Made by a program: the position numbers and the translations under genes
From: a virus
Taxonomy: Duplodnaviria; Heunggongvirae; Uroviricota; Caudoviricetes
Length of the DNA: 19,876 bases
Virus record (IMG/VR): IMGVR_UViG_2690316325_000023
Reading direction: 5' to 3' (one strand)
Shown here: piece after piece, positions 2,623-18,960 of the stretch
Position numbering within the stretch: the first letter of the stretch is position 1
Layout of the letters: each line of letters starts with the position of its first letter
The notes under the pieces: generated by a model
The model's input: only the letters and a program-made list of their open reading frames with translations
Told to the model about the DNA's origin: nothing
The model's database searches: none

Positions 2623-3222
2623 TTATGCTTGTTTACTCCTTGATTCCACTGGGGAAGCTGGCCACTCAATATCCGGTGCTCTTGATGTATCAACACGGTT
2701 CAGCAGCACTCGATACTTCTTCCAGGCTTCCAGCAACGAGATTTCTTCCTCCGTTGCGATTTCCAGATCTACAGCATCCTGAAGTGGCGCAATATGCTCA
2801 CTGGCTACCTGCATCAGGCTGTTTTTTGTTTCTTCTGCCTCCCGGATCCGGAACAGTTTTTCTGCTTCCGTATCCTTCACCCAGGCTGTGCCGTTCCACT
2901 TCTGATATTCCCCTTCCGGCGACGACCAGGTAACATTTTCCGGTAACGGACCGAGTTCAGAAATAAATAACGCGTCGCCGGAAGCCACGTCATAAACCGT
3001 TTTACCACGATGATCTTCAACGAGATGCCAAGACGCCCCATCACTGTTGAAAACAGCCACGAAGCCAGCTGGAATATCTGGCGGAGCAATATCAGTACTA
3101 TTTGCAGGCAGACCTGTATGAGGTGGAATGTATGCATCATCTTCACCAATAAATTCATTGGTTCCGACCAGCAGATTATAAATTTTTATGGTTCGTGGTT
3201 GTTCACTCATTCTGAATGCCAT
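2623..3222 (-). CDS. G: Tail fibre assembly chaperone (P2 gpG-like)
   Basis: Position immediately after tail fibre gene with TAATG stop/start overlap at 3220-3224; size and N-terminal sequence consistent with P2 G family. Confidence 0.8.
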
Positions 3223-5333
3223 TATGCAAGCCTCACAATATAGTTAAATGCGATGTTTTTTACGGTGTTTTCCGCGTTGCCATAAGCGGCAATGGTAATG
3301 GTGTGTGTGTGCGAACCAATAGCGAGCGTATGTGTATGCGCACCTATTGCTACTGTGTGAGTATGAGCTCCTGCGCTTAATACGCGATTACTTGCTGCCT
3401 TGCTTGTGTTAGTTGCATGCATTCCACCACCGGTACCGGGAGTTTCTGCGTATGCTGAAGTATTGTTGTAAGCAAAGTTGTGTGTATGTGCTCCGGTGTT
3501 ATTTGTGGATTTAGTTCCGTAATCAAACGACGATGTGGTTTTCGTCCCCAAATCCGTACTGGATGCGCTGGCGCTGTGGGTGTGCGATTTAATGCCGTCC
3601 TGTTCCTGAGACAATACGGCCCGACCACTGGCAGGTTTGCCCTTAATCGTCCAGCCACGCATATCAGGGATCACGCCTGACGGATAAGCGACTGCAAGTT
3701 TCGGGTAGGCAGATTTGTCAAAAGTCTGCCCCTGCATCAGGGCATAACCAGACGGAACGGTATCCGATGGCCACGGGATTGGTGCGCCAGGCGGATAAAA
3801 CTGCTCTGATGGCGTATAGAGTGAATAAACTGTACCGTCCGTTAACCCTTCCGGCTTATTAGCAGAATATGCTGGTGACGTATGAATCGTCACGCTGGCA
3901 TTACTGGTATAATCCCATTGAATATTTACACCAGTCGCATAATTTCCGATTGCAACGTAAATATCGTAAGTATCACCAGATGTATTGACCCAGGCAAAAT
4001 TTGTAAACCCTGCCGATGTGCGCTGCCATAAAGCACCAGTAATCCCCTTCGGATTACCATTACCTGCACGCAAAACAATTTCAGATATACCTGCCTGTTG
4101 AGGTGAACCGACGTTATATCCAGCGCCACCAATCAACGTAATTGAAACAACAGAACTCGCCTGTGGCATGGTTACCGTTGCTAATTTGAACCAACCAGCA
4201 CCACCTCTGAATGACATTGTTGTTGAGTTAAGCGTACCAATATCTTTCGGTGTCAGTGTTATATCCGCTGAAAGCGCCTTACCATTCACCTTACGGGCAG
4301 AAGGTACCCGACCATTCGCATTGTCATTAGCTGCTTTCACTGCTTTCGGTGTCGCAGCAAGCGTTTCAGATGCGCTGTTAGTCGCGCTGCTTAGCTGGAC
4401 AATTCCTTTTTGTGCTGTCGTAGCGTCCTGAGCGGTATATTTCCCGTTAGCAAGGTCATAGGCTGCCTTTACCGACTTTGGCGTTGCCGCCAGCGTTTCA
4501 GACGTGCTGTTGGTGGCGCTACTGAGCTGGACAAGGCCTTTCCGCGCTGTGGTGGCATCCTGCGCAGTATATTTCCCGTTAGCAAGGTCATATGCTGCCT
4601 TTACCGCCATTGGTGTTGCCGCCAGCGTTTCTGAATCGCTGTTGGTGGCGCTACTGAGCTGGACAAGTCCTTTCCGCGCTGTAGTGGCGTCCTGTGCGGT
4701 ATATTTCCCGTTAGCAAGGTCATAGGCTGCCTTGACCGCTTTCGGCGTTGCGGCCAGTGCTTCAGACGTGCTGTTGGTGGCGCTACTGAGTTGAACAAAG
4801 CCTTTTGCAGTCAGCGAGGCGTCCGGGTGACGTCGTGACTGTTCATGCTCTTTCAGTTTGTCATCCACGTAATCCACTGTGGCCATCACCATGGTGTTAT
4901 CCACGGTAAGCGCCACGGTGGCCGTGCTGGATACGGTCAGAATGGTGCGAAATGTTTGTGCACGTCCGGACCCTTCGGCAACGGTTGGTTTGTAACTTTC
5001 GGCAGTATTGCCCACCGCGATTAAATCGCCGTGCTCATCAAATACACCAATTTCCCGGATCCAGAATCCGCCCGTTTCAGGAGGAATAACCAGCTCTGCA
5101 ATAATGCGGTTCTGATGTGTTGCGTCCAGGATGACGCGATTAACAGTGTGTCGCCACACCTCATGCACAAGACGGGTCTGCTTACTGTCTGGCGAGGGCA
5201 ACGTGCCGCCGCCGTCACCCACGGCCATGTGAGTCAGGCGGACCGGTTTACCATCTGGTGTGGCTGCCTGCGCTAATTTTTTTTCACCCGTATCGGTGAT
5301 AACGGTTTTAAATTTTCGTGTTGTGGTACTCAT
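3222..5333 (-). CDS. H: Tail fibre protein (P2 gpH-like) with internal 44-aa tandem repeats and a His-rich C-terminal tip
   Basis: 703 aa; N-terminal ~170 aa typical of P2 H. Four (3.7) tandem 44-aa repeats [44 protein letters not shown]. C-terminus has GAHTHT / SHTHT His-x-His repeats typical of fibre tips. Confidence 0.9.
4314..4802 (-). repeat. 132-bp in-frame tandem repeat array (about 3.7 copies) inside tail fibre gene H
   Basis: The motif cccgttagcaaggtcata recurs at about 4443, 4575 and 4707 (period 132 bp), matching the 44-aa protein repeat. Confidence 0.85.
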
Positions 5334-5335
5334 GC

Positions 5336-5866
5336 TTAATCGTCCGGATAAATGGTAATGACTTCACCGTCGTAAGTTGCTGCCGCCGCGAAAATATCCC
5401 CCGGAATTTCCTGAATGATATTCAGCCCTGTCATGTGGCGGCTGACCGGGCGGGCATCAGCAATCAACCGCTCCATTTCCAGATACATTTCCTCCGTCAC
5501 GCCACTGTCCAGCGTGCCGACTTCAACGGTAAATGTTCCCGGTTCTCCGCCGAACTCCCACCACTCAGACACGCGAATGAGGTATCCCAGCGGCTCAATG
5601 GCCCGGCGCAGTGCGCTGATGGTTCCTTTGTGTCGGTGTATCAGCCATGCATCACGAATCACCTGTCGCTTTGTCTCTTCCGGCCAGTTGCGATCCCAGC
5701 GGTCAACGGAAAATGCCCAGGCGAGATAAGGCAGCAGATGCACCGGGCAGGTGTCCGGTGACCACAGCGTGTTGAGGTCTACCGGGATGTCTGTAATGCG
5801 CGCTCCGACAGCTTCGGCGCAACGCATGAAATTGCTGGCTGATGGCGGTAACAGTGAATTACTCAT
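5336..5866 (-). CDS. I: Baseplate/tail protein (P2 gpI-like)
   Basis: Translation from the internal Met (MSNSLLPP...) gives 176 aa, the P2 gpI length; gene order J-I-H. The ORF track's longer 187-aa version (to 5899) would overlap J more extensively. Confidence 0.8.
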
Positions 5867-6755
5867 TACGCCCACCTTCGCTGATGGTGAATGACTCACA
5901 GCGCGCCGCCTGTATGTCGCTGATGGCCATATTCTGTGTGGGTTCGATTATCTCCACGCGTTGCACACCGTGCACATGCAGTGCGGCAGCAATGGCGGAC
6001 AACGCCACGTCCTGACCGATAAGCCCCTGCTCAGCCAGCCACTTCCTGAACGACGATTCAGCTGCGGCCAGAATAGGTTCGGATTCCGGGCCGGGGTAAA
6101 AGTACAGTTTTGCATTCAGCCGCCATGTCACGATTCTGGCGCTCTGTACCGTCAGGCGGTCGGCCACCGGGCGGGTATCCTCTGCATTCAGAACGGCGCG
6201 AACGGTATTAAGCAACGCCTCCGTTGCTGTGCCGTCGCCTTCAGTGGACAGGATGGAAACCGTCACATTGGCCGGAGACGGACTGATAGCCCGCGCATCA
6301 CGCACCAGACCGCTGGCGCTGCGGGCAAAATACTCGTATGCACCTGACGGGCCAGCAACACTCAGGCCGTCGTACGCCCGCTGCGCCCGCAGTCTAAGCG
6401 AGGTGTCGCTCTCCATCACCGCGTCGGTGGTATCCGTTGCCGGAGTGATAACCAGGCGCTTTGTGTTCATATTGCCCGCGAGGTTGTCCAGGTCTGTCCC
6501 GGCGCTGTGGCTTAACATGCAGGCGCGTGCACCCTCATTGACCCGCTGGCGTAACAGCATTTCACGAAACGCTGTTGTCTGGGCGATAACGTTAAGGGGT
6601 TCCGATTCCAGCTCCAGCGCGGCGGAAACGGCTTCACGCTGTTCGGCGGGATAGGACGCAATCATCATGGCTTTTGTGTCAGCCAGAATTGCTTCAAAGT
6701 CAGGCTCCGCGATGATGGCGGGTTCCGGTAACTGGGAAAGGTCAACGGCGGGCAT
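5859..6755 (-). CDS. J: Baseplate assembly protein J (P2 gpJ-like)
   Basis: 298 aa, position between W and I, sequence character of the P2 J family. Confidence 0.88.
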   Translation of the reverse strand: MPAVDLSQLPEPAIIAEPDFEAILADTKAMMIASYPAEQREAVSAALELESEPLNVIAQTTAFREMLLRQRVNEGARACMLSHSAGTDLDNLAGNMNTKRLVITPATDTTDAVMESDTSLRLRAQRAYDGLSVAGPSGAYEYFARSASGLVRDARAISPSPANVTVSILSTEGDGTATEALLNTVRAVLNAEDTRPVADRLTVQSARIVTWRLNAKLYFYPGPESEPILAAAESSFRKWLAEQGLIGQDVALSAIAAALHVHGVQRVEIIEPTQNMAISDIQAARCESFTISEGGRNE

Positions 6756-6758
6756 GAT

Positions 6759-7109
6759 TTACTCCCTCAGCGTGATGGTTAATTCAACATTCTGCATGGT
6801 CTGCATGACAGTGCCCGACAGCGTCACCCCGGCGCGGCCTCCTGCCTTCCAGACAACGTCGATGGCGTCCAGGGCAATGCGGGGTTCCCATCGTGTCAGT
6901 GCAATCACGGCAGCACTCATGCATTGCAGACGCGTGGTGTTATTCATGGGTTCGTCAATCAAATCAGGCAAAAGGCTGCCATATTCCCGTCGCATAACCC
7001 GGCTTGCCAGCGGGGTGGTCAGGATGTCCCTGACTGACTGTTTCAGGTGCTCCATATCGTTCAGGTTTCCCGTCCCGTCCGGGTTCATTCCTGTGTAGCG
7101 GGTTGTCAC
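6759..7109 (-). CDS. W: Baseplate protein W (gpW/gp25 family)
   Basis: 116 aa; P2 gpW is 115 aa; sits between V and J. Confidence 0.88.
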   Translation of the reverse strand: MTTRYTGMNPDGTGNLNDMEHLKQSVRDILTTPLASRVMRREYGSLLPDLIDEPMNNTTRLQCMSAAVIALTRWEPRIALDAIDVVWKAGGRAGVTLSGTVMQTMQNVELTITLRE

Positions 7110-11678: not shown

Positions 11679-12731
11679 TTAGCTGTCGGCGAACTTCAGG
11701 CCAGTGACCATCGCGCACTTGCCATAGTCTTCAACGACATAAGCGTCATTGATGGACTGGTAGGTGGCGATGCGGTTGTATTCCGGCTCGTCTTTCATCA
11801 GGCGACGCATTGAACCTTTCTGCCAGTAAATCGACAGGTTGTTGAACGAGGTGATCAGCATCGTTGCATCCGGGAAGAACGGCGCAAGGAACACACCCAG
11901 CCCGCCAATGGTGCGCGATGACAGGATGAGCTGCCCGGCGAGTAATTCCGCATTGGGATTCTGGCCGCTGATGCTGTTCAGCACGGGCAGACGCAGCGAG
12001 TTAAACAGGTTGCGCCCCATAATCACCACGAGGTCGTCAGCTTCCTTGTGCCATTCATCCAGCAGGGATGAGCGTGCGTCCTGAACCAGTGCATCAGCAT
12101 TCGCATACTTACCCGCGTGCGCCACGGTGTTGTCCATGTTGCGGGAGGTCAGCGTCACGTCATTCATTACGCGCGCGCTGGCATTGGTTCTGATGTGCTC
12201 CAGCCACCCCACGTTAACGTCCTGAAGCAGCTTGTTGGTGCTGAAGTTGGATTTTTCCGCGTGTGACGTGCCGTTAAAGCCGATCATGATGCGGTCAAGC
12301 GCCACCTGTCGGGCAATCTGTGCGCTGATGCGGGTCTGGAAGTCATTGTGCGCCGCCCAGGCATCAAGCTGCGGATACGAAATAAACGTGTCGTAGTTCA
12401 CCTGCTCACACTGGTACTGACGGGACTTCAGGTCGACAGCGTTAATCGGGTTGCGGCGATCTGTGCCGTCATAACTGGTATTTGTGCGCGCAATCGGCCC
12501 GGTGGTGTCCATGAGGACTTTTTCGCCTTTCTGGTCGGTCACACCGATCACGTTAATTTTTTTTGTAAGTTCGGTGCTATCCTTTGAGGCGTTTTCAAAA
12601 CGCTGCTGCACCGCGGGTTCCACGGTAAATCGCGATACCAGTCCAGAAACCGGGATATTGTTAATCGACGCCTGTCGCGTCATGTAGCAGCCCAGCTTGT
12701 TACGGGCATTATCTGACATCACCAGATTCAT
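11679..12731 (-). CDS. N: Major capsid protein N (P2 gpN-like)
   Basis: 350 aa; motifs KFTVEP, ARVM, MLITSFNNLSIYW and YVVEDY align with what I recall of P2 gpN. Confidence 0.93.
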   Translation of the reverse strand: MNLVMSDNARNKLGCYMTRQASINNIPVSGLVSRFTVEPAVQQRFENASKDSTELTKKINVIGVTDQKGEKVLMDTTGPIARTNTSYDGTDRRNPINAVDLKSRQYQCEQVNYDTFISYPQLDAWAAHNDFQTRISAQIARQVALDRIMIGFNGTSHAEKSNFSTNKLLQDVNVGWLEHIRTNASARVMNDVTLTSRNMDNTVAHAGKYANADALVQDARSSLLDEWHKEADDLVVIMGRNLFNSLRLPVLNSISGQNPNAELLAGQLILSSRTIGGLGVFLAPFFPDATMLITSFNNLSIYWQKGSMRRLMKDEPEYNRIATYQSINDAYVVEDYGKCAMVTGLKFADS

Positions 12732-12754
12732 AAAAAATTTGCTCCTTTGTCTTA

Positions 12755-13624
12755 TCAGAAGTCAGCCAGCTGGTCGGAGGCTGCGCCCGTTGCGGTGAAC
12801 CGGTTCTGCGGATCGCCGTCCTGCGTGCGCAGTTTTTCCTTCAGTGCTGTCAGCTCTGTGGTCAGCGAAGTGATTTTCTGGCTGTCCTGCTGATGGTGGG
12901 TTTCCAGTGCATTAAAACGGTCGATAATGTCGGCCTGTGATGTTGCGACACCTTCCACCGCTTCCTGAATACGGGAGAAACTGGCGTCATCCGCTTTGCG
13001 GCCACGGCCAATAATCCCCATAACGCGGTTAAACCACTGGGTGCCTTCTTCCTGACGTTGTTCGGTGAGTTCGATAAGTTCTGACTCCATAGCGGCGGTA
13101 AACATCGCCACGTCTCCCTGCTGACAGTTGAATGTCATCAGTTGCATACGTTGTTGTGCCGCAAAGGCCAGACGTTCCGTGCCCAGGCTGGCGGGGGTGT
13201 CGGTCATTGCCAGCCCGCGCAGGTAAGGGCCTCCCGTGATGGTTGACTGTGGTTCCAGCTCAATACTGGAGTAAATTTTTTTACCATCGTTAAGCAGGGA
13301 CATCATGCGAGCGGTCGGCTCAATTTCGGCATACAGTGCCGTGCGGCCTGCCAGCGGGCCATCGGTTATGTCTTCGGTGCTCAACCCCACAACATCGCCC
13401 ATAGCGGAAAACTCGCTGCCGGGGAGTGGTGACAGGATGTGCTCAATATTCACACGTGCACCATAAACGGACGGGTTATAACTGGTGGCGGCAGCTTTCA
13501 GCATGTCGCCGTTGATTTCGCGCCCGTCTGCCGTCACACCGGAGACAGCCACGCGAAACTTTTTGCGGGATGTCTTTTTTTCATTAGTCATAGTTTTTGC
13601 CCCTCTGACTGGTTCTTCAGTCAT
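12755..13624 (-). CDS. O: Capsid scaffolding protein O (P2 gpO-like)
   Basis: 289 aa; first gene of the leftward late operon, divergent from P; AAGGAG Shine-Dalgarno of N directly downstream. Confidence 0.9.
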   Translation of the reverse strand: MTEEPVRGAKTMTNEKKTSRKKFRVAVSGVTADGREINGDMLKAAATSYNPSVYGARVNIEHILSPLPGSEFSAMGDVVGLSTEDITDGPLAGRTALYAEIEPTARMMSLLNDGKKIYSSIELEPQSTITGGPYLRGLAMTDTPASLGTERLAFAAQQRMQLMTFNCQQGDVAMFTAAMESELIELTEQRQEEGTQWFNRVMGIIGRGRKADDASFSRIQEAVEGVATSQADIIDRFNALETHHQQDSQKITSLTTELTALKEKLRTQDGDPQNRFTATGAASDQLADF

Positions 13625-13745
13625 GATGGCAAAGCGTAACAGGCTGATACAAAGGGCTTTTGTTGTAAGAAAACGGCCAGAACAGGGGGTTAAGGAGAAC
13701 GGTTTCGCGCGCGGGTAATCTTCCTGTAATTACTCAGGGGGAGCA
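13625..13745. promoter_or_regulatory. Divergent late-operon control region between O and P (expected activator-dependent late promoters)
   Basis: 121-bp intergenic region between divergent O and P, as in P2 where Ogr-dependent promoters sit here. Contains a TGTTGT...ACA partial dyad (about 13661-13684) and the GGGGGAG Shine-Dalgarno of P. No promoter mapped with certainty. Confidence 0.4.
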
Positions 13746-15497
13746 ATGATTCAGGACGCTTTTGTGCGCCAGCGTGCGCGGCAACTTTACTGGCAGGGTT
13801 ATCCGCCCGCAGAAATATCACGTCTGATGGGAATAAACCCGAACACGATTTATGCGTGGAAAAAACGCGACCAGTGGGATGAAACACCACCCGTGCAGCG
13901 TGTCACGCAGTCCATCGATGCGCGCCTCATCCAGCTTACTGAAAAACAGAATAAAACAGGTGGTGACTTCAAGGAAATAGACCTGCTGACCCGGCAGCTT
14001 AAAAAACTGCATGATGGCCAGCCGGATGCGACGGCCACAGGAAAGAAAAGCCGGGCGAAAAAACTCAAAAATCATTTCACGCCGGAACAGATTGCCGCAC
14101 TGCGGGAAAAAATCATCAGCAGGCTGGAGTGGCATCAGCGGGGCTGGTTTGACTCTCTGACCCTTTGCAGGGAAGCCGGGATACGTAACAGGATGATCCT
14201 GAAATCCCGACAGATTGGAGCGACATGGTATTTTGCACAGGAAGCACTGCTGATGGCGCTGCGTGACGATGTGGCGCAACCTTACCAGCGTAACCAGATT
14301 TTTTTGTCTGCGTCGCGTCGTCAGGCGTTCCAGTTTAAAAGCATTATTCAGAAGGCTGCATCTGAAGTTGATGTGGAGCTGAAAGGGGGCGATAAAATCA
14401 TCCTCTCCAACGGCGCAGAGCTGCATTTTCTTGGTACTTCTGCTGCGACGGCACAGTCCTACACGGGCAATTTTTATTTTGATGAATTTTTCTGGGTCAG
14501 TCGCTTTGCTGAACTGCGCAAGGTGGCTGGCGCTATGGCAACCCTCAGCGGACTGCGGCGCACCTACTTCTCCACGCCATCCACCGAAACGCACGAGGCA
14601 TACGCCTACTGGAACGGCGACCGCTGGAACGAGAAAAAGGCCACGCATAAACGCCAGCGTTTTTCTGTTGACTGGAAAACGCTGCATAACGGGCTTATCT
14701 GCCCTGACCGGACGTGGCGGCAAATTGTCACGCTGGAAGATGTGGTTAATCACGGCTGGAAACACACCGATATCGACGAAATTCGTGATGAAAACACCGA
14801 AGACGAGTTCCTCAATCTCTATATGTGTGAGTTTGTCCGCGAAGGGGAATCGGCATTTAACCTGAATATCCTGATTGGCTGCGGTGTTGACGGATACGAC
14901 GACTGGAAAGACTGGAAACCTTTTGCTCCCCGCCCGATGGGGAATCGTCCGGTATGGATTGGGTATGACGCAAACGGCAGCAGTGGCAACGGCGACAGCG
15001 GCGCTGTGTCCGTGGTGGTTCCTCCGGCTGTTCCTGGTGGCCGTTTTCGAACGGTGGAGACGCGACGCGTTCAGGGGCTGGAGTTTGAAGAACAGGCCAG
15101 AGTCATTGAAGAGTTCACGTGTCGCTACAACGTGGAACACATCGGCATTGATGTGACGGGCGGGAACGGGGAGGCTGTTTATCAGATAGTGAAGCGGTTT
15201 TTCCCTGCTGCTATTCCGTACACCTTCACGCTGTCATCCAAACGGTCGCTGGTACTGAAAATGCTGCAAATAATGCGTGCCGGACGGTGGGAATACGATC
15301 GCGCCGAACGCGAGCTGGTCGCGGCCTTTAACGCCGTGCGTAAGGTGAAAACACCGGGCGGCTTTATCACTTACGAAACGGACCGCGCGAGGGGGATCAG
15401 CCACGGCGACCTTGCGTGGGCAACCATGCTTGCTGTCATTAACGAACCAATTGGCGGCGAAGGAGAAAACGAGCGTTTCACGGTTATGGAGTTCTGA
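13746..15497 (+). CDS. P: Terminase large (ATPase) subunit P (P2 gpP-like)
   Basis: 583 aa; motifs LKSRQIGATWYFA, GAELHFLGTSA, TYFSTPST and DLAWA match the P2 terminase ATPase. Confidence 0.93.
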   Translation: MIQDAFVRQRARQLYWQGYPPAEISRLMGINPNTIYAWKKRDQWDETPPVQRVTQSIDARLIQLTEKQNKTGGDFKEIDLLTRQLKKLHDGQPDATATGKKSRAKKLKNHFTPEQIAALREKIISRLEWHQRGWFDSLTLCREAGIRNRMILKSRQIGATWYFAQEALLMALRDDVAQPYQRNQIFLSASRRQAFQFKSIIQKAASEVDVELKGGDKIILSNGAELHFLGTSAATAQSYTGNFYFDEFFWVSRFAELRKVAGAMATLSGLRRTYFSTPSTETHEAYAYWNGDRWNEKKATHKRQRFSVDWKTLHNGLICPDRTWRQIVTLEDVVNHGWKHTDIDEIRDENTEDEFLNLYMCEFVREGESAFNLNILIGCGVDGYDDWKDWKPFAPRPMGNRPVWIGYDANGSSGNGDSGAVSVVVPPAVPGGRFRTVETRRVQGLEFEEQARVIEEFTCRYNVEHIGIDVTGGNGEAVYQIVKRFFPAAIPYTFTLSSKRSLVLKMLQIMRAGRWEYDRAERELVAAFNAVRKVKTPGGFITYETDRARGISHGDLAWATMLAVINEPIGGEGENERFTVMEF

Positions 15498-16543
15498 TGA
15501 GCAGAAAAAATAAAAAAGTGCGCATGAGTTCACGCATTGATCTCGCTGATGCGCTCAGGAAAGAATCATCGCTCAGTGCATTCACATTTGATGGTCCTTA
15601 TCGCCTGACCGGGCATGACCTGCTGGACAATATGTACTGTGCTGATAACGGGCGGTGGTATGAAACCCCGGTGGACTGGTACGGTCTGGCAAGAGCCGCC
15701 CGGCAAACGTCCTGGCATCAGTCTGCGCTTTACTTTAAGCGCAATGTATTGCTCGGTTGCTACATCCCGCACCCGCTGCTTTCCCGGCAGGATTTCTCGG
15801 CGCTGGCGCTGGACTGGTTTGTGTTCGGTAACGCATTCCTTGAGCTTCGGAGTAATATGCTCGGCGAACCACTTAAATTACGGCACGCACTGGCGAAATA
15901 CGTGCGACGCGGAAGCGATCTTGAATCATGGTGGTATGTGCAGGATGGCAAGGACGCGTTTCAGTTTCGCCCTGGCAAAGTGTGCCACCTGATGAATCCG
16001 GACATTAACCAGGAAATTTACGGCATGCCGGAATATCTTGGCGCATTACTCTCGGCCAGCCTGTCTCATTCGGCGGACATGTTCAGAAAACTGTATTACG
16101 ACAACGGATCCCACGCCGGGTGCATCATCTACATCGGTGCAGCGCAGGTAAACCGCGAAAGCATGGACTCCCTGAAAGAAACGCTACAGGGGGCACGTGG
16201 TGGTGGTGCGTTTAAAAACGTGCTCATTCATGCGCCCAACGGGGGCAAAGAGGGGGTGCAAATTTTGCCGTTCCAGCAGATCACCGCAAAGGATGAGTTC
16301 ATGAATGTTAAGGCGGCATCCCGTGATGATGTGCTGGCTGCGCACCGCGTTCCGCCGCAACTGATGGGGGCGATGCCGGGCGAAAAAAGTGCGTTTGGTG
16401 ATGTGGAGAAGGCCGCGCGGGTTTACGCAATTAACGAGCTGATGCCCGTCATGGAGGCCATGAAGCACATCAATGACTGGCTTGGCGAAGAGGTGATCCG
16501 CTTTAACCCTTACGCACTGTTAGATACCCAGCCCACATCCTGA
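15497..16543 (+). CDS. Q: Portal protein Q (P2 gpQ-like)
   Basis: 348 aa (P2 Q is 344 aa); start overlaps the P stop; last gene before the probable cos region. Confidence 0.88.
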   Translation: MSRKNKKVRMSSRIDLADALRKESSLSAFTFDGPYRLTGHDLLDNMYCADNGRWYETPVDWYGLARAARQTSWHQSALYFKRNVLLGCYIPHPLLSRQDFSALALDWFVFGNAFLELRSNMLGEPLKLRHALAKYVRRGSDLESWWYVQDGKDAFQFRPGKVCHLMNPDINQEIYGMPEYLGALLSASLSHSADMFRKLYYDNGSHAGCIIYIGAAQVNRESMDSLKETLQGARGGGAFKNVLIHAPNGGKEGVQILPFQQITAKDEFMNVKAASRDDVLAAHRVPPQLMGAMPGEKSAFGDVEKAARVYAINELMPVMEAMKHINDWLGEEVIRFNPYALLDTQPTS

Positions 16544-16594: not shown

Positions 16595-16993
16595 ACTCTC
16601 CAGCTCCTGTATCAGTCAGATAATTTCACGACGCTTTCCTGCTTATTGCCATCATCGACGGTCAGATTCTTACGCAATCCCACTGCGCTGACTGCATGTT
16701 CTCGCCGCCTCAGTGCGATTTTGACGGCCTTACCTTTCACCCCATCAAACCAGAATCCCTCACGTATTTTTCACGCTCAGCGTGAGAAATACGGCCATTC
16801 TGTTGTATCTCTGCGACATCGTTCAGGGAATGCTATTTACCCCCTGAAACGCGGGCTGTTCCCCCGTCACCTGCGCGCAGAAAAAACGCGTTTTTTTGTG
16901 CACGTACGGATCCTTGACGGATCCAGCCACCACGCGGGCCGGAAGTACAAAAAGTCGTTCAAAAAAATTGTGCAAACTTGTGCACTATCGTGC

Positions 16994-17020
16994 AAACAAA
17001 AAAAGCGCCTTATCGGCGCT
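16994..17020 (-). terminator. Rho-independent terminator of the 89-aa gene
   Basis: Minus-strand hairpin AAGCGCC-GAUAA-GGCGCUU followed by a U7 tract (plus-strand aaaaaaa at about 16995-17001), about 10 nt after the ORF stop. Confidence 0.55.
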
Positions 17021-17029
17021 TCAAAAGTA

Positions 17030-17299
17030 TCAATTGTTGCTGTGTATTAATCGCCAACCACGAACATATGCTTCATAGGCATCTCTGTGCCTTACAGTTC
17101 CAGCCTGGCTAAACGGAATGTTAGCTAAAACTAAATCATTCTGAGCCATAGCGCGTCCTTCAAGCGCATCTTTTATGCCTAGCTCAAAAGCACAGGCAGC
17201 GCATTTGTGCCGACCTTCTTGTCCTTGATATTCAGGGAGAGACAGAAATGTTGGATTATAACGATGAGGGTTCTTGCAAATACCTGTTTTAGCCCGCAC
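17030..17299 (-). CDS. Hypothetical 89-aa protein, unknown function
   Basis: GTG start with GAGG Shine-Dalgarno 8 nt upstream and a strong terminator downstream. Preceded by a structured leader. No family recognised by eye. Confidence 0.45.
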   Translation of the reverse strand: MRAKTGICKNPHRYNPTFLSLPEYQGQEGRHKCAACAFELGIKDALEGRAMAQNDLVLANIPFSQAGTVRHRDAYEAYVRGWRLIHSNN

Positions 17300-17429
17300 T
17301 TTATTTACCTCATAGGAAAAATATGCGTGCCTTTACAGAGGTGCGTGTAAGCAATAAAATATACGACGCACATTTTGATTTACTTCGGAAGGCACGCATA
17401 TCAGGTTAAGTGAGTCCGACCGAGTTTTA

Positions 17430-17461
17430 CGCCCCAATAGTTGCTGCTATTGGGGCGTTTT
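17430..17461 (+). terminator. Plus-strand intrinsic terminator (11-bp GC-rich stem plus UUUU)
   Basis: cgccccaatag-ttgctg-ctattggggcg followed by tttt on the plus strand. On the minus strand the same hairpin is not followed by Us, so it is directional. Confidence 0.5.
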
Positions 17462-17507
17462 GCATGGACAATGCCGCGCAATTATCTTGTCGCTCACAAT
17501 GCGAACG

Positions 17508-17535
17508 ATCTTACAAAAAGGCACATTACTGTCAA
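17508..17535 (-). promoter_or_regulatory. Candidate sigma-70 promoter (TTGACA-16-TAAGAT) reading leftwards, with GATC overlapping the -10
   Basis: Minus-strand TTGACA (plus 17530-17535), 16-bp spacer, TAAGAT (plus 17508-17513). A Dam site overlaps the -10 hexamer and three more GATC lie within about 80 bp. Confidence 0.35.
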
Positions 17536-17627
17536 GATAATTGATCGTTTTAATCGATAGATAATAGACAATCTATTTGTTTAACAGATCGATTATTGAA
17601 GTAAGTGTGCCAAATGGAATGATACTG

Positions 17628-17672
17628 TCTCTATAAACGTGAGCATTTTCTCTATAAACGTGAGCATTTTTC
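17628..17672. repeat. Two tandem copies of a 22-bp unit (tctataaacgtgagcattttc)
   Basis: Perfect direct duplication read directly, 13 nt downstream of the ParR-like gene stop. Confidence 0.8.
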
Positions 17673-17684
17673 GCGCAGATGCTT

Positions 17685-17996
17685 TTACTCAGGAAATAAC
17701 GCCCGGATATTCCCAGCCATCTGGCTGGTTATCTTAGCCACTGGTGCAGACTGTGCTTCAAACTTTTTTGAGCTGATTTGTGTCACAGGTAACATCTCAT
17801 CATCAGCCCATGCGGCCAGTCGGTAAGCCTCTGCCGGATTCGTCTTCAGAAGTGCCAGCCCGGCCAGAAAAGCCACGCGTTGGCCGCTTTTGCGGGCTTC
17901 TGGTGTAAGGCTGTCCAGCCAGGCGCATGCTTCTCCTTCGTTCTTGACGGCAGCTGGCTTCAGATAGAAACTTATTCTTCTGGTTGGTGTCGTCAT
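17685..17996 (-). CDS. parR: ParR/StbB-like centromere-binding protein (type II partition adaptor)
   Basis: 103 aa directly downstream of the ParM-like gene. RISFYLKP, LDSLTPEAR, RVAFLAGLALL and a C-terminal IRALFPE resemble R1/R100 ParR/StbB (TIAFKLNP, LDSIPQGER, AALTAGLAL, LRSLFP) as recalled from memory. Confidence 0.65.
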   Translation of the reverse strand: MTTPTRRISFYLKPAAVKNEGEACAWLDSLTPEARKSGQRVAFLAGLALLKTNPAEAYRLAAWADDEMLPVTQISSKKFEAQSAPVAKITSQMAGNIRALFPE

Positions 17997-18000
17997 TGGT

Positions 18001-18960
18001 TTACTCCTTGTTCATTGCGTACAGCCCATTAACCAGAGCAAATTGTGGCACTCCGTCCGCGATGAAAGTCGCATTAACTCCGCAGGCTTCGCGGATAGCG
18101 GGTGCCACAATCTCCGCCCCGCCACCGACAACCATCACCCGCCCGTAACCCGAAAAAACCGCCAGCGCGCGGATCACGCGTTGTTTCAGTGTTTCTTCCT
18201 TTTCACGAATAACCGCCATCAGGCTGGCGTAATGCGCGTCATTGTGGATGTGCTGGCGCAGCCAGGCTTCATCATGGCGATGTTCGATAATGGTATTGGC
18301 GATGTGGTGACTGGTGCGCATACCGTTAGTGGCCATCACCGACAGTACGGCATCGGCCATCAGGGAAACGCCTACGTGTGGATCGCAAAACACCTGGCTG
18401 ATACCTGCCAGTTGTCCCTGAACCTTTGCCACATCCAGCGTGGTTCCGCCTAAATCCACAATCAGCAGGGATTCAAACGGACTCATGTCAGCCAGTGCTT
18501 TAAAACCAGCCGGAATGGATTCAGGCATAACCCGTACGTTACGGATAGTGAATGCTTTTCCGTTCTGGTACGCCACCGGGCGCATGACGTTTGCTTTTTT
18601 GCGGTTGATGTTGGCCATGTCCGGCTGTGCGTTTGTGTCGAAATATTCGCTCAGTGGCAGGGTGACAACCACATCCACTTCCTGTGGTGTGATGCCTGAT
18701 TTGACCAGCGCGTGATGAATGGCAATGACATTCACATCGCTGTACTGGTATTGCGTGTCGGTCGTCTGGACAAAGCGATCGCTGACCGGATCAAAACCAT
18801 AGCGCACGCCATCAAGCATGTAGTTCGCGGGCTGCGTGCCACCGAACGGCGCAGACCATTCCGACTTGAAGCTGTTCGGGCTGATGGCGTTGCGGCGTTC
18901 GCCGTTCTCAGTCCATGCCAGCTTGATGTTGGTGGAGCCGTCATCGATACAAATTTTCAT
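18001..18960 (-). CDS. parM: ParM/StbA-like actin-family segregation ATPase
   Basis: 319 aa with the actin-fold phosphate and adenosine motifs IDDGSTNIKL, YSDVNVIAIHHAL, LIVDLGGTTLD, VMVVGGGAEI and LVNGLY; collinear similarity to plasmid R1 ParM over the whole length as recalled. Confidence 0.85.
   Translation of the reverse strand: MKICIDDGSTNIKLAWTENGERRNAISPNSFKSEWSAPFGGTQPANYMLDGVRYGFDPVSDRFVQTTDTQYQYSDVNVIAIHHALVKSGITPQEVDVVVTLPLSEYFDTNAQPDMANINRKKANVMRPVAYQNGKAFTIRNVRVMPESIPAGFKALADMSPFESLLIVDLGGTTLDVAKVQGQLAGISQVFCDPHVGVSLMADAVLSVMATNGMRTSHHIANTIIEHRHDEAWLRQHIHNDAHYASLMAVIREKEETLKQRVIRALAVFSGYGRVMVVGGGAEIVAPAIREACGVNATFIADGVPQFALVNGLYAMNKE

What the first reader, a model, noticed from the sequence alone, without database searches (positions are those of the whole stretch)
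16994..17540. Unknown 89-aa gene behind a long structured leader with a terminator-like hairpin, an upstream 29-codon ORF and a possible antisense RNA
A good leftward promoter (TTGACA-16-TAAGAT, GATC in the -10) lies about 200 nt upstream of the 89-aa ORF. The intervening minus-strand leader contains a GC-rich 11-bp hairpin and then a 13-bp stem (ATATGCGTGCCTT / AAGGCACGCATAT) followed by UUUUU immediately before the GAGG Shine-Dalgarno, an attenuator-like arrangement. A 29-codon ORF (about 17399 to 17310) begins in the 5' arm and stops inside the Shine-Dalgarno of the 89-aa gene, so its translation would melt the hairpin (coupling or attenuation logic, reminiscent of mok/hok or leader-peptide control). 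On the plus strand the same region ends in a proper intrinsic terminator (17430-17461), suggesting a ~140-nt antisense RNA fully complementary to the leader. The architecture resembles antisense-controlled toxin, antirepressor or immunity modules. The 89-aa product matches nothing I recognise.
Basis: seen in the sequence. Interest (0 to 1): 0.65.

Follow-up and report, generated by a model that had tools for sequence, protein, structure and literature searches.

The report
Antisense-RNA-gated prophage cargo gene cassette
A P2-like prophage of E. coli carries a self-contained cargo cassette in which an unknown 89-aa zinc-type protein sits behind a folded 200-nt leader that also encodes, on the other strand, a conserved ~97-nt antisense RNA; this regulatory layout recurs in many enterobacterial phages and appears in none of the libraries or literature I could search.

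Summary
The described features are all in the sequence: the leftward promoter, the 12-bp and 14-bp hairpins, the U-run before the GAGG Shine-Dalgarno, the 29-codon ORF and the plus-strand terminator.

Comparison with about 50 divergent copies from E. coli, Salmonella, Enterobacter, Pantoea, Providencia, Proteus, Gilliamella, Klebsiella, Citrobacter and Serratia phages separates the conserved parts from the local ones.

**Conserved**
- A sense promoter.
- A convergent antisense promoter, TTTAC(A/T)-17-TAnnnT, 34-47 nt upstream of the start codon. Its -35, A-11 and T-7 are almost the only invariant columns.
- A GC hairpin that ends the antisense RNA.
- A long leader hairpin whose 5' arm the antisense RNA covers.

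**Not conserved**
- The 29-codon ORF.
- The terminator-like form of hairpin 2.

The antisense RNA should be about 97 nt (17366-17462), not 140.

The protein is an internally duplicated Cys/His family with no Pfam or NCBIfam match and no PDB fold match. Outside the gammaproteobacteria it sits in DpnII-type (GATC) restriction-modification operons or next to Dam-like methylases. It is also fused to defence nucleases. GATC is 3.6-fold enriched in the cassette's control region. One phage uses the same control module for a Bro-N antirepressor-like gene.

Verdict: a real, conserved antisense-controlled cargo cassette that I could not find described. The direction of regulation and the protein's function are inferred, not shown.

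The parts
17508..17535 (-). Sense sigma-70 promoter: -35 TTGACA (17535-17530), 16-nt spacer, -10 TAAGAT (17513-17508). GATC overlaps the -10 (17510-17507). Predicted transcription start about 17500-17502.
   Evidence: The promoter position, and a GATC 7-8 nt upstream of the -35, are conserved in groups A, A', B, C and D.
17300..17501 (-). About 202-nt structured 5' leader of the 89-aa gene.
   Evidence: Fold z = -4.4; helices mapped. The same order of elements (5' stem-loop, HP1, HP2, SD region) appears in all groups.
17429..17458 (.). HP1, a 12-bp GC-rich hairpin (ACGCCCCAATAG / CTATTGGGGCGT). On the plus strand it is followed by TTTTG (17459-17463) and is the predicted intrinsic terminator of the antisense RNA.
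   Evidence: The stem sequence differs between groups while pairing is kept. In groups A, A', E and most of B it is more stable on the antisense strand.
17332..17360 (+). Antisense sigma-70 promoter: -35 TTTACA (17332-17337), 17-nt spacer, -10 TAAAAT (17355-17360). Predicted start about 17366-17368.
   Evidence: 10 of 12 matches. The box TTTAC(A/T), the 17-nt spacer (18 nt in one, L056) and a -10 with A at position 2 and T at position 6 are present in all 46 unique leaders printed. The GTAAA box and the two -10 columns are among the few invariant columns of a 28-sequence alignment with 48% mean identity.
17366..17462 (+). Predicted cis-antisense RNA, about 97 nt. It is complementary to leader positions about +40 to +136, covering HP1 and the 5' arm of HP2 but not the SD.
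   Evidence: Promoter and terminator coordinates. Fold -35.6 kcal/mol, z = -4.0. No transcript data are available.
17307..17406 (-). HP2, a long-range hairpin: 5' arm 17402-17389, 3' arm 17333-17320 (14 bp). It encloses an inner hairpin (17371-17341) and the antisense promoter. It is extended by ACCU 17406-17403 pairing with AGGU 17310-17307, which occludes the SD.
   Evidence: pair probabilities 0.89-0.97 for A17310, G17309 and G17308. A hairpin whose 3' arm overlaps the GTAAAG box is predicted in groups A, B, C and D with unrelated arm sequences; in A' the MFE fold pairs the box with the region around the start codon instead.
17317..17321 (-). U5 run directly after HP2. Together with HP2 it looks like a terminator or attenuator.
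   Evidence: The arrangement occurs only in groups A and A', and the terminator scan did not call it because the loop exceeds 8 nt.
17310..17399 (-). 29-codon ORF. Probably not a gene.
   Evidence: It has no SD and is not conserved in relatives.
17030..17299 (-). 89-aa gene (GTG start, SD GAGG 17311-17308). The product belongs to an uncharacterised, internally duplicated Cys/His family (phrog_3941).
   Evidence: conserved C8, H12, C33, C36; AF2 pLDDT 91; the two halves align, hhalign probability 98.6%.
17002..17022 (-). Intrinsic terminator closing the cassette (GAAGCGCC-GATAA-GGCGCTT plus a T-run).
17537..17596 (.). Imperfect 26-nt palindrome rich in GATC and ATCGAT, directly upstream of the sense -35. 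Possible operator. GATC sites at 17543 and 17587.
   Evidence: Conserved in the A' group.
17480..17542 (.). Perfect 10-bp inverted repeat, AATTATCTTG / CAAGATAATT, bracketing the sense promoter (arms 17480-17489 and 17533-17542).
   Evidence: Not conserved in group A'.

Best explanation
The interval is an autonomous cargo ('moron') cassette in the variable stretch between parR and the portal gene (the cos-proximal end, by synteny with P2) of a P2-like (Xuanwuvirus/P88-type) prophage.

A sigma-70 promoter carrying GATC sites transcribes a folded leader of about 200 nt, the 89-aa gene and a terminator. Inside the leader a face-to-face sigma-70 promoter, about 135 bp from the sense start, makes a cis-antisense RNA of about 97 nt. 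That RNA ends at the GC hairpin HP1. It is fully complementary to the middle of the leader, that is HP1 plus the 5' arm of the long hairpin HP2. It stops about 55 nt short of the Shine-Dalgarno.

Most likely the antisense RNA keeps the protein low in the lysogen. Two routes are plausible: duplex formation followed by RNase III-type cleavage and decay, and interference between the convergent promoters. Both would act on top of SD occlusion by the leader fold. Expression would escape when sense transcription outruns the antisense RNA. That could happen just after DNA entry or replication, when the GATC sites at the promoters are un- or hemimethylated.

The product is a small, internally duplicated, probably zinc-binding protein of an undescribed family. 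Its homologues elsewhere belong to DpnII-type (GATC) restriction-modification operons, Dam-like methylase pairs and defence nucleases. It therefore probably acts on DNA or on Dam/GATC-linked processes.

**Shown:** the sequence elements, their conservation, the modular reuse of the control region, and the genomic associations of the protein.

**Inferred:** that both RNAs are made, the direction of regulation, the role of Dam, and the protein's activity.
For: **Antisense promoter**
- It scores 10 of 12 in the window.
- The box TTTAC(A/T), a 17-nt spacer (18 in one) and a -10 with A at position 2 and T at position 6 occur 34-47 nt upstream of the start in all 46 unique leaders printed, from seven sequence groups.
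- In a 28-sequence cross-group alignment of only 48% mean identity, the invariant columns include the GTAAA box, the two columns corresponding to A-11 and T-7 of the antisense -10, and T.G of the sense -35.

**Antisense terminator**
- A GC hairpin of 8-15 bp lies about 65-100 nt downstream in nearly all of these leaders, with different stem sequences. In 8 of the 46 (L056 and several Providencia/Proteus leaders) my simple scan picked a different hairpin.
- It is more stable on the antisense strand in groups A, A', E and most of B.

**Leader fold**
- z = -4.4, and the SD is paired with probability about 0.9.
- HP2 and the SD hairpin contain G-U pairs and compensatory changes that fit the sense strand. 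The HP2 region is more stable on the sense strand in 41 of 54 leaders.

**Cassette nature**
- It has its own promoter and terminator.
- P88 and phage Chuche carry other genes in the same interval.
- Homologous cassettes sit downstream of cI in P22-like phages and between Q and the lysis genes in a Providencia phage.

**Modularity**
- The same promoter, leader and antisense unit drives a Bro-N gene in L171, with the junction at the SD.

**GATC**
- 85 observed against 23.6 expected in 28 control regions, the top palindromic tetramer.
- A GATC lies at a fixed position upstream of the sense -35 in 22 of 23 sequences of groups A-D.

**Protein**
- 172 cluster representatives; conserved C8, H12, C33 and C36.
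- Confident AF2 model; internal repeat.
- 32 of 63 species loci lie within 2.5 kb of D12 methylase, N6_N4 methylase or DpnII endonuclease genes.
- Fusions to NOV_C nuclease (PADLOC PDC-S36), DpdB/DndB and WYL.
Against: - There is no transcript evidence for either RNA. Everything rests on sequence and comparison.
- The antisense RNA does not cover the SD, so a simple translational block does not apply.
- In the window the anti-SD (ACCU 17406-17403) and the 5' arm of the terminator-like HP2 lie inside the antisense target. Pairing could therefore open the SD or prevent termination, which would activate rather than repress.
- The antisense terminator tails in groups B, C and D (UUCCC...) are poor U-tracts.
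- Group E has few GATC sites.
- The DpnII-operon promoters examined contain no GATC, which weakens a GATC-reader role for the protein.
- The related sequences are not independent, so counts overstate the number of evolutionary events.
Confidence: 0.6

Rival explanations
1. Type I toxin-antitoxin or addiction module. The 89-aa protein would be toxic (for example by binding or damaging DNA) and the antisense RNA would be its unstable antitoxin, stabilising the prophage or aborting infection.
For: The layout matches type I loci: a long folded 5' UTR, an occluded SD, and a cis-antisense RNA from a strong convergent promoter acting upstream of the SD, as IstR-1 does on tisB (the comparison is from my own knowledge). 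The cassettes sit at prophage cargo positions. The same module gates a Bro-N antirepressor-like gene, which would be harmful to a lysogen if it were expressed.
Against: Homologues are co-transcribed, with overlapping reading frames, inside restriction-modification operons that have no antisense module. That argues against intrinsic toxicity. The protein is a soluble 89-aa globular model, not a small membrane peptide. It matches no PADLOC model.
Confidence: 0.2
2. The antisense RNA is an activator in the P2-like groups. HP2 plus U5 would terminate or attenuate sense transcription and hide the SD. Antisense pairing with the 5' arm of HP2 and with the anti-SD would then allow read-through and translation.
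For: In the window, the 5' arm of HP2 (17402-17389) and the anti-SD ACCU (17406-17403) both lie within the antisense-complementary stretch 17366-17462. HP2 is followed by U5. A long-range stem followed by a U-rich run also exists in group A' with an unrelated sequence.
Against: The terminator-like form is not general. In groups B, C and D the SD is held by a local hairpin outside the antisense target. A 57-nt interior makes HP2 an atypical terminator, and the terminator scan did not call it. Long perfect RNA duplexes are normally degraded.
Confidence: 0.12
3. Leader-peptide or translational-coupling control through the 29-codon ORF (mok/hok- or tap/repA-like).
For: The ORF runs from 17399 to 17310, starts in the 5' arm of HP2 and stops inside the SD. 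Its start lies within the antisense target.
Against: There is no SD upstream of its ATG. The ORF is absent from the nearest relatives L119-L123. At the equivalent place, group B has only ATG-TTT-TCT-TGA and group D only ATG-TGA. The one coding change seen among E. coli copies is non-synonymous.
Confidence: 0.04
4. The elements are not RNA regulators. The palindromes and repeats would serve the neighbouring ParMR partition system (a centromere or operator), or they would be chance matches.
For: The interval lies directly downstream of parR. It contains a 21-bp tandem repeat, a 26-nt palindrome and a 10-bp inverted repeat. Promoter-like matches alone are at the chance level.
Against: The same promoter pair, hairpins and gene recur in P22-like, lambdoid and integrase-adjacent contexts that show no partition genes within the stretches examined. 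The conserved columns are exactly the functional bases of two sigma-70 promoters. The partition-like repeats lie upstream of 17537, outside the leader.
Confidence: 0.04

Closest known systems
IS10 RNA-IN / RNA-OUT with a Dam-sensitive pIN promoter
   Same: Face-to-face promoters. The internal one makes a short, stable antisense RNA against the 5' part of the mRNA. The sense promoter carries GATC in its -10 (17510-17507), so Dam methylation state could gate expression to freshly replicated or newly entered DNA.
   Different: RNA-OUT covers the 5' end and ribosome-binding site of RNA-IN. Here the overlap lies in the mid-leader and ends about 55 nt upstream of the SD. The cargo is not a transposase. 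Dam dependence is untested here.
Phage P22 immI: sar antisense RNA controlling the antirepressor gene ant
   Same: A phage-encoded cis-antisense RNA of about 70-100 nt, made from a promoter inside the target transcript. It would let a prophage silence a potentially dangerous gene, including on superinfecting relatives. One relative (L171) uses the same module for a Bro-N antirepressor-like gene.
   Different: sar overlaps the ant ribosome-binding site. There are no Mnt or Arc repressors here. The Rfam sar model scores only 22 bits against a gathering score of 43, on the hairpin alone. The cargo in the window is not an antirepressor.
Type I toxin-antitoxin loci (tisB/istR-1, symE/symR, ralR/ralA, hok/sok)
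   Same: A long structured 5' UTR with an occluded SD. An antisense RNA acts at a distance from the SD, as IstR-1 does at the tisB standby site. Prophage location. RalR and SymE show that the regulated protein need not be a membrane peptide.
   Different: Toxicity is unknown and is made doubtful by operon-embedded homologues. There is no conserved mok-like frame. The protein family is unrelated to any known type I toxin.
Antisense control in restriction-modification systems (EcoRI, Eco29kI) and C-protein controllers
   Same: The protein family is genetically tied to restriction-modification operons (DpnII type). Convergent reverse promoters and antisense RNA are known ways of delaying dangerous restriction-modification genes (review PMC12707154).
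   Different: In EcoRI and Eco29kI the reverse promoters lie inside the endonuclease gene. The small protein here has no helix-turn-helix and no resemblance to C proteins. The window contains no methylase or endonuclease.
Plasmid R1 CopA / CopT / tap
   Same: An antisense RNA of about 90 nt against a leader upstream of the regulated gene, with hairpin loops available for kissing.
   Different: The leader ORF is not conserved here. The cassette has no replication function.

Membership tests
cis-encoded antisense RNA control module (generic) | A promoter on the opposite strand inside the target transcript. | tested here: met
   TTTACA-17-TAAAAT at 17332-17360 on the plus strand. Conserved in all 46 unique leaders printed, and in the key promoter bases.
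cis-encoded antisense RNA control module (generic) | A defined 3' end (terminator) that gives a discrete small RNA. | tested here: met
   Hairpin 17429-17458 plus TTTTG. Equivalent hairpins occur in nearly all leaders, although the U-tracts are weak in groups B, C and D.
cis-encoded antisense RNA control module (generic) | The antisense transcript is detected and changes target expression. | not testable with these tools
   No expression data are available. This needs RNA-seq or Northern blots plus reporter assays.
Type I toxin-antitoxin (hok/sok, tisB/istR-1 type) | The toxin is a small (under 60 aa) hydrophobic membrane peptide. | tested here: not met
   The product is 89 aa. The confident AF2 model is helical and globular with a conserved Cys/His cluster.
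Type I toxin-antitoxin (any, including symE, ralR) | The protein is toxic when freed from the RNA antitoxin. | not testable with these tools
   Indirect evidence only: homologues are co-transcribed in restriction-modification operons without an antisense module.
hok/mok/sok or tap/repA translational coupling | A conserved overlapping leader reading frame whose translation is needed for the main gene. | tested here: not met
   The 29-codon ORF lacks an SD. It is absent or reduced to 1-3 codons in relatives.
Leader-peptide transcription attenuation | Alternative terminator and antiterminator folds read out by a translated leader peptide. | tested here: not met
   There is no conserved leader peptide. 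The terminator-like HP2 plus U5 occurs only in groups A and A'.
P22 sar/ant | The antisense RNA overlaps the ribosome-binding site of an antirepressor gene, and the sequence matches the Rfam sar family. | tested here: not met
   The overlap ends at about 17366, whereas the SD is at 17311. Rfam sar scores 22 bits against a gathering score of 43. The cargo is not an antirepressor in the window, but it is a Bro-N gene in L171.
IS10-type Dam plus antisense control | GATC within the sense promoter hexamers. | tested here: met
   TAAGATCG, with GATC at 17510-17507. GATC is 3.6-fold enriched in cassette control regions. The effect of methylation was not tested.
IS10-type Dam plus antisense control | The antisense RNA covers the mRNA 5' end and the ribosome-binding site. 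| tested here: not met
   The overlap is about +40 to +136 of a 202-nt leader.
Restriction-modification controller (C) proteins | A small helix-turn-helix DNA-binding protein encoded in a restriction-modification operon. | tested here: not met
   No HTH or any other Pfam or NCBIfam domain. No PDB fold match. Operon location holds for homologues, not for the window.
Any Rfam RNA family | A score at or above the family's gathering threshold. | tested here: not met
   Nothing in 16700-17800 of the window, nor in the cassette regions of ten related loci.
Ribosome modulation factor (RMF) / Rmf-CrpP fold | Significant sequence or fold similarity. | tested here: not met
   The best Foldseek hit, 2jrm, has E = 1.5 and TM 0.35. 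The NCBIfam RMF model gives E = 0.05 for one homologue only.

The most novel reading that the evidence does not exclude
The 89-aa protein would be a pseudo-dimeric zinc protein that reads GATC sites or their adenine-methylation state, or that acts on Dam-family methylases or DpnII-type enzymes. It would have been recruited from GATC restriction-modification systems by phages of Dam-positive hosts.

The cassette would then be a new kind of 'establishment switch'. Expression would be gated twice: by Dam methylation of GATC-bearing face-to-face promoters, and by a new family of cis-antisense RNA. The protein, or in one phage an antirepressor, would be made only on newly entered or replicating DNA that is un- or hemimethylated. 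That could serve anti-restriction, counter-defence or control of induction.
Probability: 0.2. Interest if true: 0.8.

Novelty: new variant of a known kind. Interest (0 to 1): 0.6.

Why it matters
The cassette is common. It is present in 166 of 5,426 complete E. coli genomes, and its E. coli and Salmonella versions are each seen on at least 1,000 contigs. It also occurs in Klebsiella, Providencia, Proteus and bee-gut Gilliamella phages. Neither its RNA nor its protein has a name in Rfam, Pfam, NCBIfam, PADLOC or PDB.

The analysis yields three things that can be tested directly:
- A conserved antisense RNA with a defined promoter, whose key bases can be mutated.
- A portable tight-control module that phages also use for an antirepressor-like gene.
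- A small, widespread protein family tied to Dam-like methylases, DpnII-type restriction-modification systems and defence nucleases.

If the protein turns out to read or modulate GATC methylation, it would add a new player to restriction-modification control and to phage-host epigenetic conflict.

Tried and rejected
**Rfam**
- Gathering-threshold and permissive searches of the window, and a gathering search of ten related loci, found nothing in the cassette. The only hits were sub-threshold matches to the hairpin: ctRNA_pGA1, sar and Spot 42.

**Protein libraries and structure**
- Pfam, NCBIfam and PADLOC gave no family for the 89-aa protein. PHROGs gave only phrog_3941, 'unknown function'.
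- The AlphaFold database library was not available.

**Idea: the protein reads GATC in the promoters of its restriction-modification operons**
- The upstream regions of 17 such operons contain essentially no GATC, so this specific version is not supported.

**Strand-asymmetry test of the hairpins**
- It was noisy, because the automatic choice picked different hairpins in some groups. I use it only as weak support.

**Is the control module a general platform?**
- Exact-pattern scans for the group A, B and D cores in viral contigs, and for the group B core in metagenome contigs, were run.
- Downstream cargo was checked for the group B hits only: nearly all carry the 89-aa family, with one Bro-N swap. 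The group A and D hits lie on the same contigs as the earlier protein hits.
- Five metagenome hits look like chance 20-mer matches.

**Literature**
- Searches on small proteins in DpnII systems, on PDC-S36 and on prophage type I toxin-antitoxin systems found no description of this protein or RNA. One search with poorly chosen terms was uninformative.

**Not attempted**
- A covariance model across all groups. The groups align poorly outside the promoter boxes, and an alignment fitted to a model would bias the pair counts.
Full report
**Setting**

The window is part of a P2-like prophage of E. coli (Peduoviridae, genus Xuanwuvirus, P88 type). Its best matches are Escherichia phages 520873, 503458 and P88.

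On the minus strand the gene order is:
- replication endonuclease (19037 onward);
- ParM (18001-18960);
- ParR/StbB (17685-17996);
- a 385-bp gap;
- the 89-aa gene (17030-17299);
- a terminator (17022-17002).

The portal gene follows on the plus strand (15497-16543). By synteny with P2 this places cos next to the cassette; I did not map cos itself.

The stretch 16990-17700 occurs in 166 of 5,426 complete E. coli genomes, always on the chromosome, at 95-100% identity. P88 and phage Chuche share the backbone but carry different genes between parR and the portal gene. The interval is therefore a variable cargo site.

**Check of the observation**

- sense promoter TTGACA (17535-17530), 16 nt, TAAGAT (17513-17508), with GATC across the -10;
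- hairpin HP1 (17458-17447 / 17440-17429, 12 bp);
- long-range stem HP2 (17402-17389 / 17333-17320, 14 bp), followed by U5 (17321-17317);
- SD GAGG (17311-17308) and GTG start (17299);
- a 29-codon ORF (17399-17310) whose stop overlaps the SD.

The leader folds much better than its shuffles (z = -4.4). Promoter-like matches alone are no more frequent than in shuffled sequence (2 found, 1.9 expected). Single-sequence evidence is therefore weak for the promoters.

Combined with the plus-strand terminator (HP1 plus TTTTG), it predicts an antisense RNA of about 97 nt (about 17366-17462). That RNA folds with z = -4.0.

**Comparative evidence**

The protein has 172 representative relatives at the 50% clustering level. 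I fetched loci from species genomes and viral contigs and looked upstream of the homologues.

In every locus from Enterobacterales and Orbales the gene is preceded by the same architecture, although the sequences fall into at least seven poorly alignable groups:
- A: the window.
- A': other P2-like phages with the same parMR backbone. The cassette is 75% identical through the promoter and HP1, then diverges.
- B: Salmonella P22-like phages, Enterobacter and Pantoea.
- C: Gilliamella.
- D: Providencia and Proteus.
- E: Klebsiella, Citrobacter and Buttiauxella.
- F: Serratia.

All 46 unique leaders printed carry TTTAC(A/T) 34-47 nt upstream of the start codon on the antisense strand. The spacer is 17 nt (18 nt in one). 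The -10 always has A at position 2 and T at position 6.

In a 28-sequence alignment with 48% mean identity, the invariant columns are mostly these:
- the GTAAA box;
- the two columns corresponding to A-11 and T-7 of the antisense -10;
- T.G of the sense -35.

That pattern is the signature of two working sigma-70 promoters, not of a conserved RNA or protein sequence.

About 65-100 nt downstream of the antisense start, nearly every leader has a GC hairpin of 8-15 bp whose stem differs between groups while pairing is kept. In 8 of the 46 leaders (L056 and several in the Providencia/Proteus group) my simple scan picked a different hairpin. In groups A, A', E and most of B the GC hairpin is more stable when read on the antisense strand. 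In group E it is a textbook terminator with U7.

I conclude that the antisense RNA is a real, conserved element. This rests on inference from conservation, with no transcript data.

**The sense leader**

Folds of representatives and a consensus fold of 16 group B sequences show the same order of elements:
- a 5'-terminal stem-loop, with compensatory changes;
- HP1;
- a long hairpin, HP2, whose 5' arm lies inside the antisense-complementary stretch and whose 3' arm overlaps the GTAAAG box. The arm sequences are unrelated in groups A, B, C and D. In A' the MFE fold pairs the box with the region around the start codon instead, although a long-range GAGGTGT/ACACCTC stem can be drawn by eye;
- an SD region.

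In groups B and D the SD sits in a local hairpin. In group B that hairpin shows seven double-sided changes in two of its pairs. In the two P2-like groups a long-range stem runs straight into a U-rich run and the SD.

In the window the SD itself pairs with ACCU at 17406-17403 (probability about 0.9). HP2 and the SD hairpin use G-U pairs that exist only on the sense strand. The HP2 region is more stable on the sense strand in 41 of 54 leaders.

The 29-codon ORF is not conserved. A' has no ORF there, B has ATG-TTT-TCT-TGA and D has ATG-TGA. It also lacks an SD. The mok/hok-like and leader-peptide readings are therefore rejected. The attenuator reading survives only as a lineage-specific possibility.

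**How it probably works**

The antisense RNA pairs with leader positions about +40 to +136, that is HP1 and the 5' arm of HP2, and ends about 55 nt before the SD.

The most general reading across all groups is repression. Possible routes are duplex formation with cleavage or decay, and interference between face-to-face promoters about 135 bp apart. Both would add to SD occlusion by the leader.

I hold this at moderate confidence, for one reason. In the window the antisense target contains both the anti-SD and the 5' arm of the terminator-like HP2. Pairing could instead open the SD or prevent termination, which is the activator rival. Only a reporter experiment can decide.

**GATC**

GATC is the most over-represented palindromic tetramer in the 28 control regions: 85 observed against 23.6 expected, with the next best at 1.65-fold.

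- One GATC sits 7-8 nt upstream of the sense -35 in 22 of 23 sequences of groups A-D.
- Others lie at the sense -10 or +1 position, or at the antisense start (GAGATCTC, GTGATCAC).
- The window has three GATC sites within 81 bp (17507, 17543, 17587), against a window average of 2 per kb.

This recalls the Dam-sensitive pIN promoter of IS10 (from my own knowledge). It suggests that methylation state gates the promoter pair, but this was not tested. Group E has few GATC sites.

**Modularity**

Exact-pattern scans with the invariant group B core found the 89-aa family downstream in 24 of 25 viral hits. In one phage (L171; the same sequence recurs in two metagenome stretches) the downstream gene is instead a 233-aa Bro-N protein. 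There the whole promoter, leader and antisense unit is retained. It sits directly after an S24-type cI repressor gene, and the swap junction is at the SD.

The control unit is thus portable. It is used for a gene class, antirepressor-like, that a lysogen must keep silent, which echoes sar/ant of P22.

**The protein**

- It matches only phrog_3941, 'unknown function'. It has no Pfam, NCBIfam or PADLOC family.
- No PDB sequence or fold match was found.
- It is called 'hypothetical' in every source.
- The family consensus is CxxxHRY..LPxxQGGxGRHKCAGCAY.xG ... LPxSQAGTVRHK..AY.LGY, with C8, H12, C33 and C36 nearly invariant. This suggests a zinc site, which is an inference.
- The AF2 model is confident (pLDDT 91).
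- The two halves are homologous (hhalign probability 98.6%, E = 1.3e-15). The protein is therefore a pseudo-dimer.

Genomic context is informative. In 32 of 63 species loci the gene lies within 2.5 kb of restriction-modification genes, in several gene orders:
- a D12-class Dam-like methylase in 29 loci;
- an N6_N4 methylase in 23 loci;
- a DpnII endonuclease in 22 loci.

Nine loci have a D12 methylase but no endonuclease within that distance. None of the 16 loci from Enterobacterales, Orbales and Pasteurellales has such a neighbour, against 32 of 47 elsewhere (Fisher p = 8e-7; the loci are not fully independent). Enterobacterales and Pasteurellales are lineages that carry a host Dam methylase (my own knowledge); for Orbales I only assume this.

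The domain also occurs in fusions:
- twice at the N-terminus of NOV_C nucleases that match the PADLOC candidate PDC-S36 and PD-T4-1;
- fused to DpdB/DndB-like proteins;
- fused to WYL proteins.

The best inference is a DNA-directed role linked to GATC or Dam. One specific version of that idea is not supported: that the protein reads GATC in the promoters of its own restriction-modification operons. Those promoters lack GATC.

**Comparison with known systems, and novelty**

The logic is that of known cis-antisense systems: IS10, P22 sar/ant, type I toxin-antitoxin loci, R1 CopA/CopT, and EcoRI/Eco29kI. The element fails the defining tests of each family:
- the antisense RNA does not overlap the ribosome-binding site;
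- there is no conserved leader frame;
- the product is not a membrane peptide;
- there is no helix-turn-helix;
- there is no Rfam match.

I found no description of the RNA or the protein in the searchable literature. I therefore rate it a new variant of a known kind. It combines a conserved, unnamed antisense-gated cargo cassette with an unnamed protein family tied to restriction-modification systems.

**Confidence**

- About 0.85 that the cassette and the conserved convergent promoter pair and terminator are real.
- About 0.6 for the full best explanation, including net repression.
- About 0.2 for the GATC/methylation-reader 'establishment switch' reading.

Noticed in passing
L171:2300-3285 (IMGVR_UViG_3300006188_000030); also L244 and L254: The same promoter, leader and antisense module (invariant core GAATGTTTTCTTGAGATCTC and box TGTAAAGC) drives a 233-aa Bro-N (PF02498) antirepressor-like gene instead of the 89-aa family. 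It lies directly downstream of an S24 cI repressor gene, and the swap junction is at the Shine-Dalgarno.
   Followed up: partly
window 17685-18960 (-): A complete type II partition pair, ParM (319 aa, PF06406/PF21523) and ParR/StbB (103 aa, PF10784), sits in a P2-like prophage. In 166 complete E. coli genomes the adjacent interval 16990-17700 is found only on chromosomes. No obvious iteron centromere lies in the 76 bp upstream of parM.
   Followed up: partly
window 17628-17669: A perfect tandem duplication of a 21-bp unit (TCTCTATAAACGTGAGCATTT) lies just downstream of parR. The three related copies aligned carry a single copy, and most E. coli matches are 21 bp shorter than the query, so the window appears to hold a copy-number variant.
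   Followed up: partly
window 17480-17489 / 17533-17542 and 17537-17596: A perfect 10-bp inverted repeat (AATTATCTTG / CAAGATAATT) brackets the sense promoter from the -35 to about +15; it is not conserved in group A'. A 26-nt imperfect palindrome rich in ATCGAT and GATC lies just upstream; it is conserved in group A'. Either could be an operator for an unknown regulator, or for ParR.
   Followed up: no
window 2681-2879 (-): A full-length match to Rfam IS009 (RF02111, 218.5 bits against a gathering score of 117). It falls inside the large minus-strand ORFs of what looks like the tail-gene region of the prophage.
   Followed up: no
Proteins P0051, P0065, P0068, P0075, P0088; P0047, P0100, P0108; P0020: The domain of the 89-aa protein occurs twice at the N-terminus of NOV_C (PF13020) nucleases that match the PADLOC defence candidate PDC-S36 and PD-T4-1. 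It is also fused to the C-terminus of DpdB/DndB-like proteins and of a WYL protein.
   Followed up: partly
L053, L059, L068, L070, L072, L075, L085 and other loci (about 3000-6900 in each): In Clostridia, Bacteroidales, Treponema and other groups the small gene is embedded in DpnII-type operons. One order is D12 methylase, small gene, DpnII endonuclease, N6_N4 methylase, with overlapping stop and start codons. Several other gene orders also occur.
   Followed up: partly
Group B leaders (e.g. L009:3900-3915) and group D leaders (e.g. L003:3890-3900): An invariant mini-ORF, ATG-TTT-TCT-TGA, is present in all 16 group B leaders. A start-stop ATG-TGA occurs in group D at the equivalent position, next to the palindromes GAGATCTC and GTGATCAC at the antisense start. 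Their significance is unknown.
   Followed up: no
H29: NZ_CM166350.1 1996345-1997811 (E. coli CH4793): An IS1-family element is inserted within the interval 16990-17700 in this strain. The exact insertion point relative to the leader or gene was not determined.
   Followed up: no
L166 (phage P88, NC_026014 10195-11285) and L167 (phage Chuche, locus 12144-13756): Close relatives with the same parMR and portal backbone carry unrelated small genes in place of this cassette. This marks the interval between parR and the portal gene as a cargo hotspot in Xuanwuvirus phages.
   Followed up: partly
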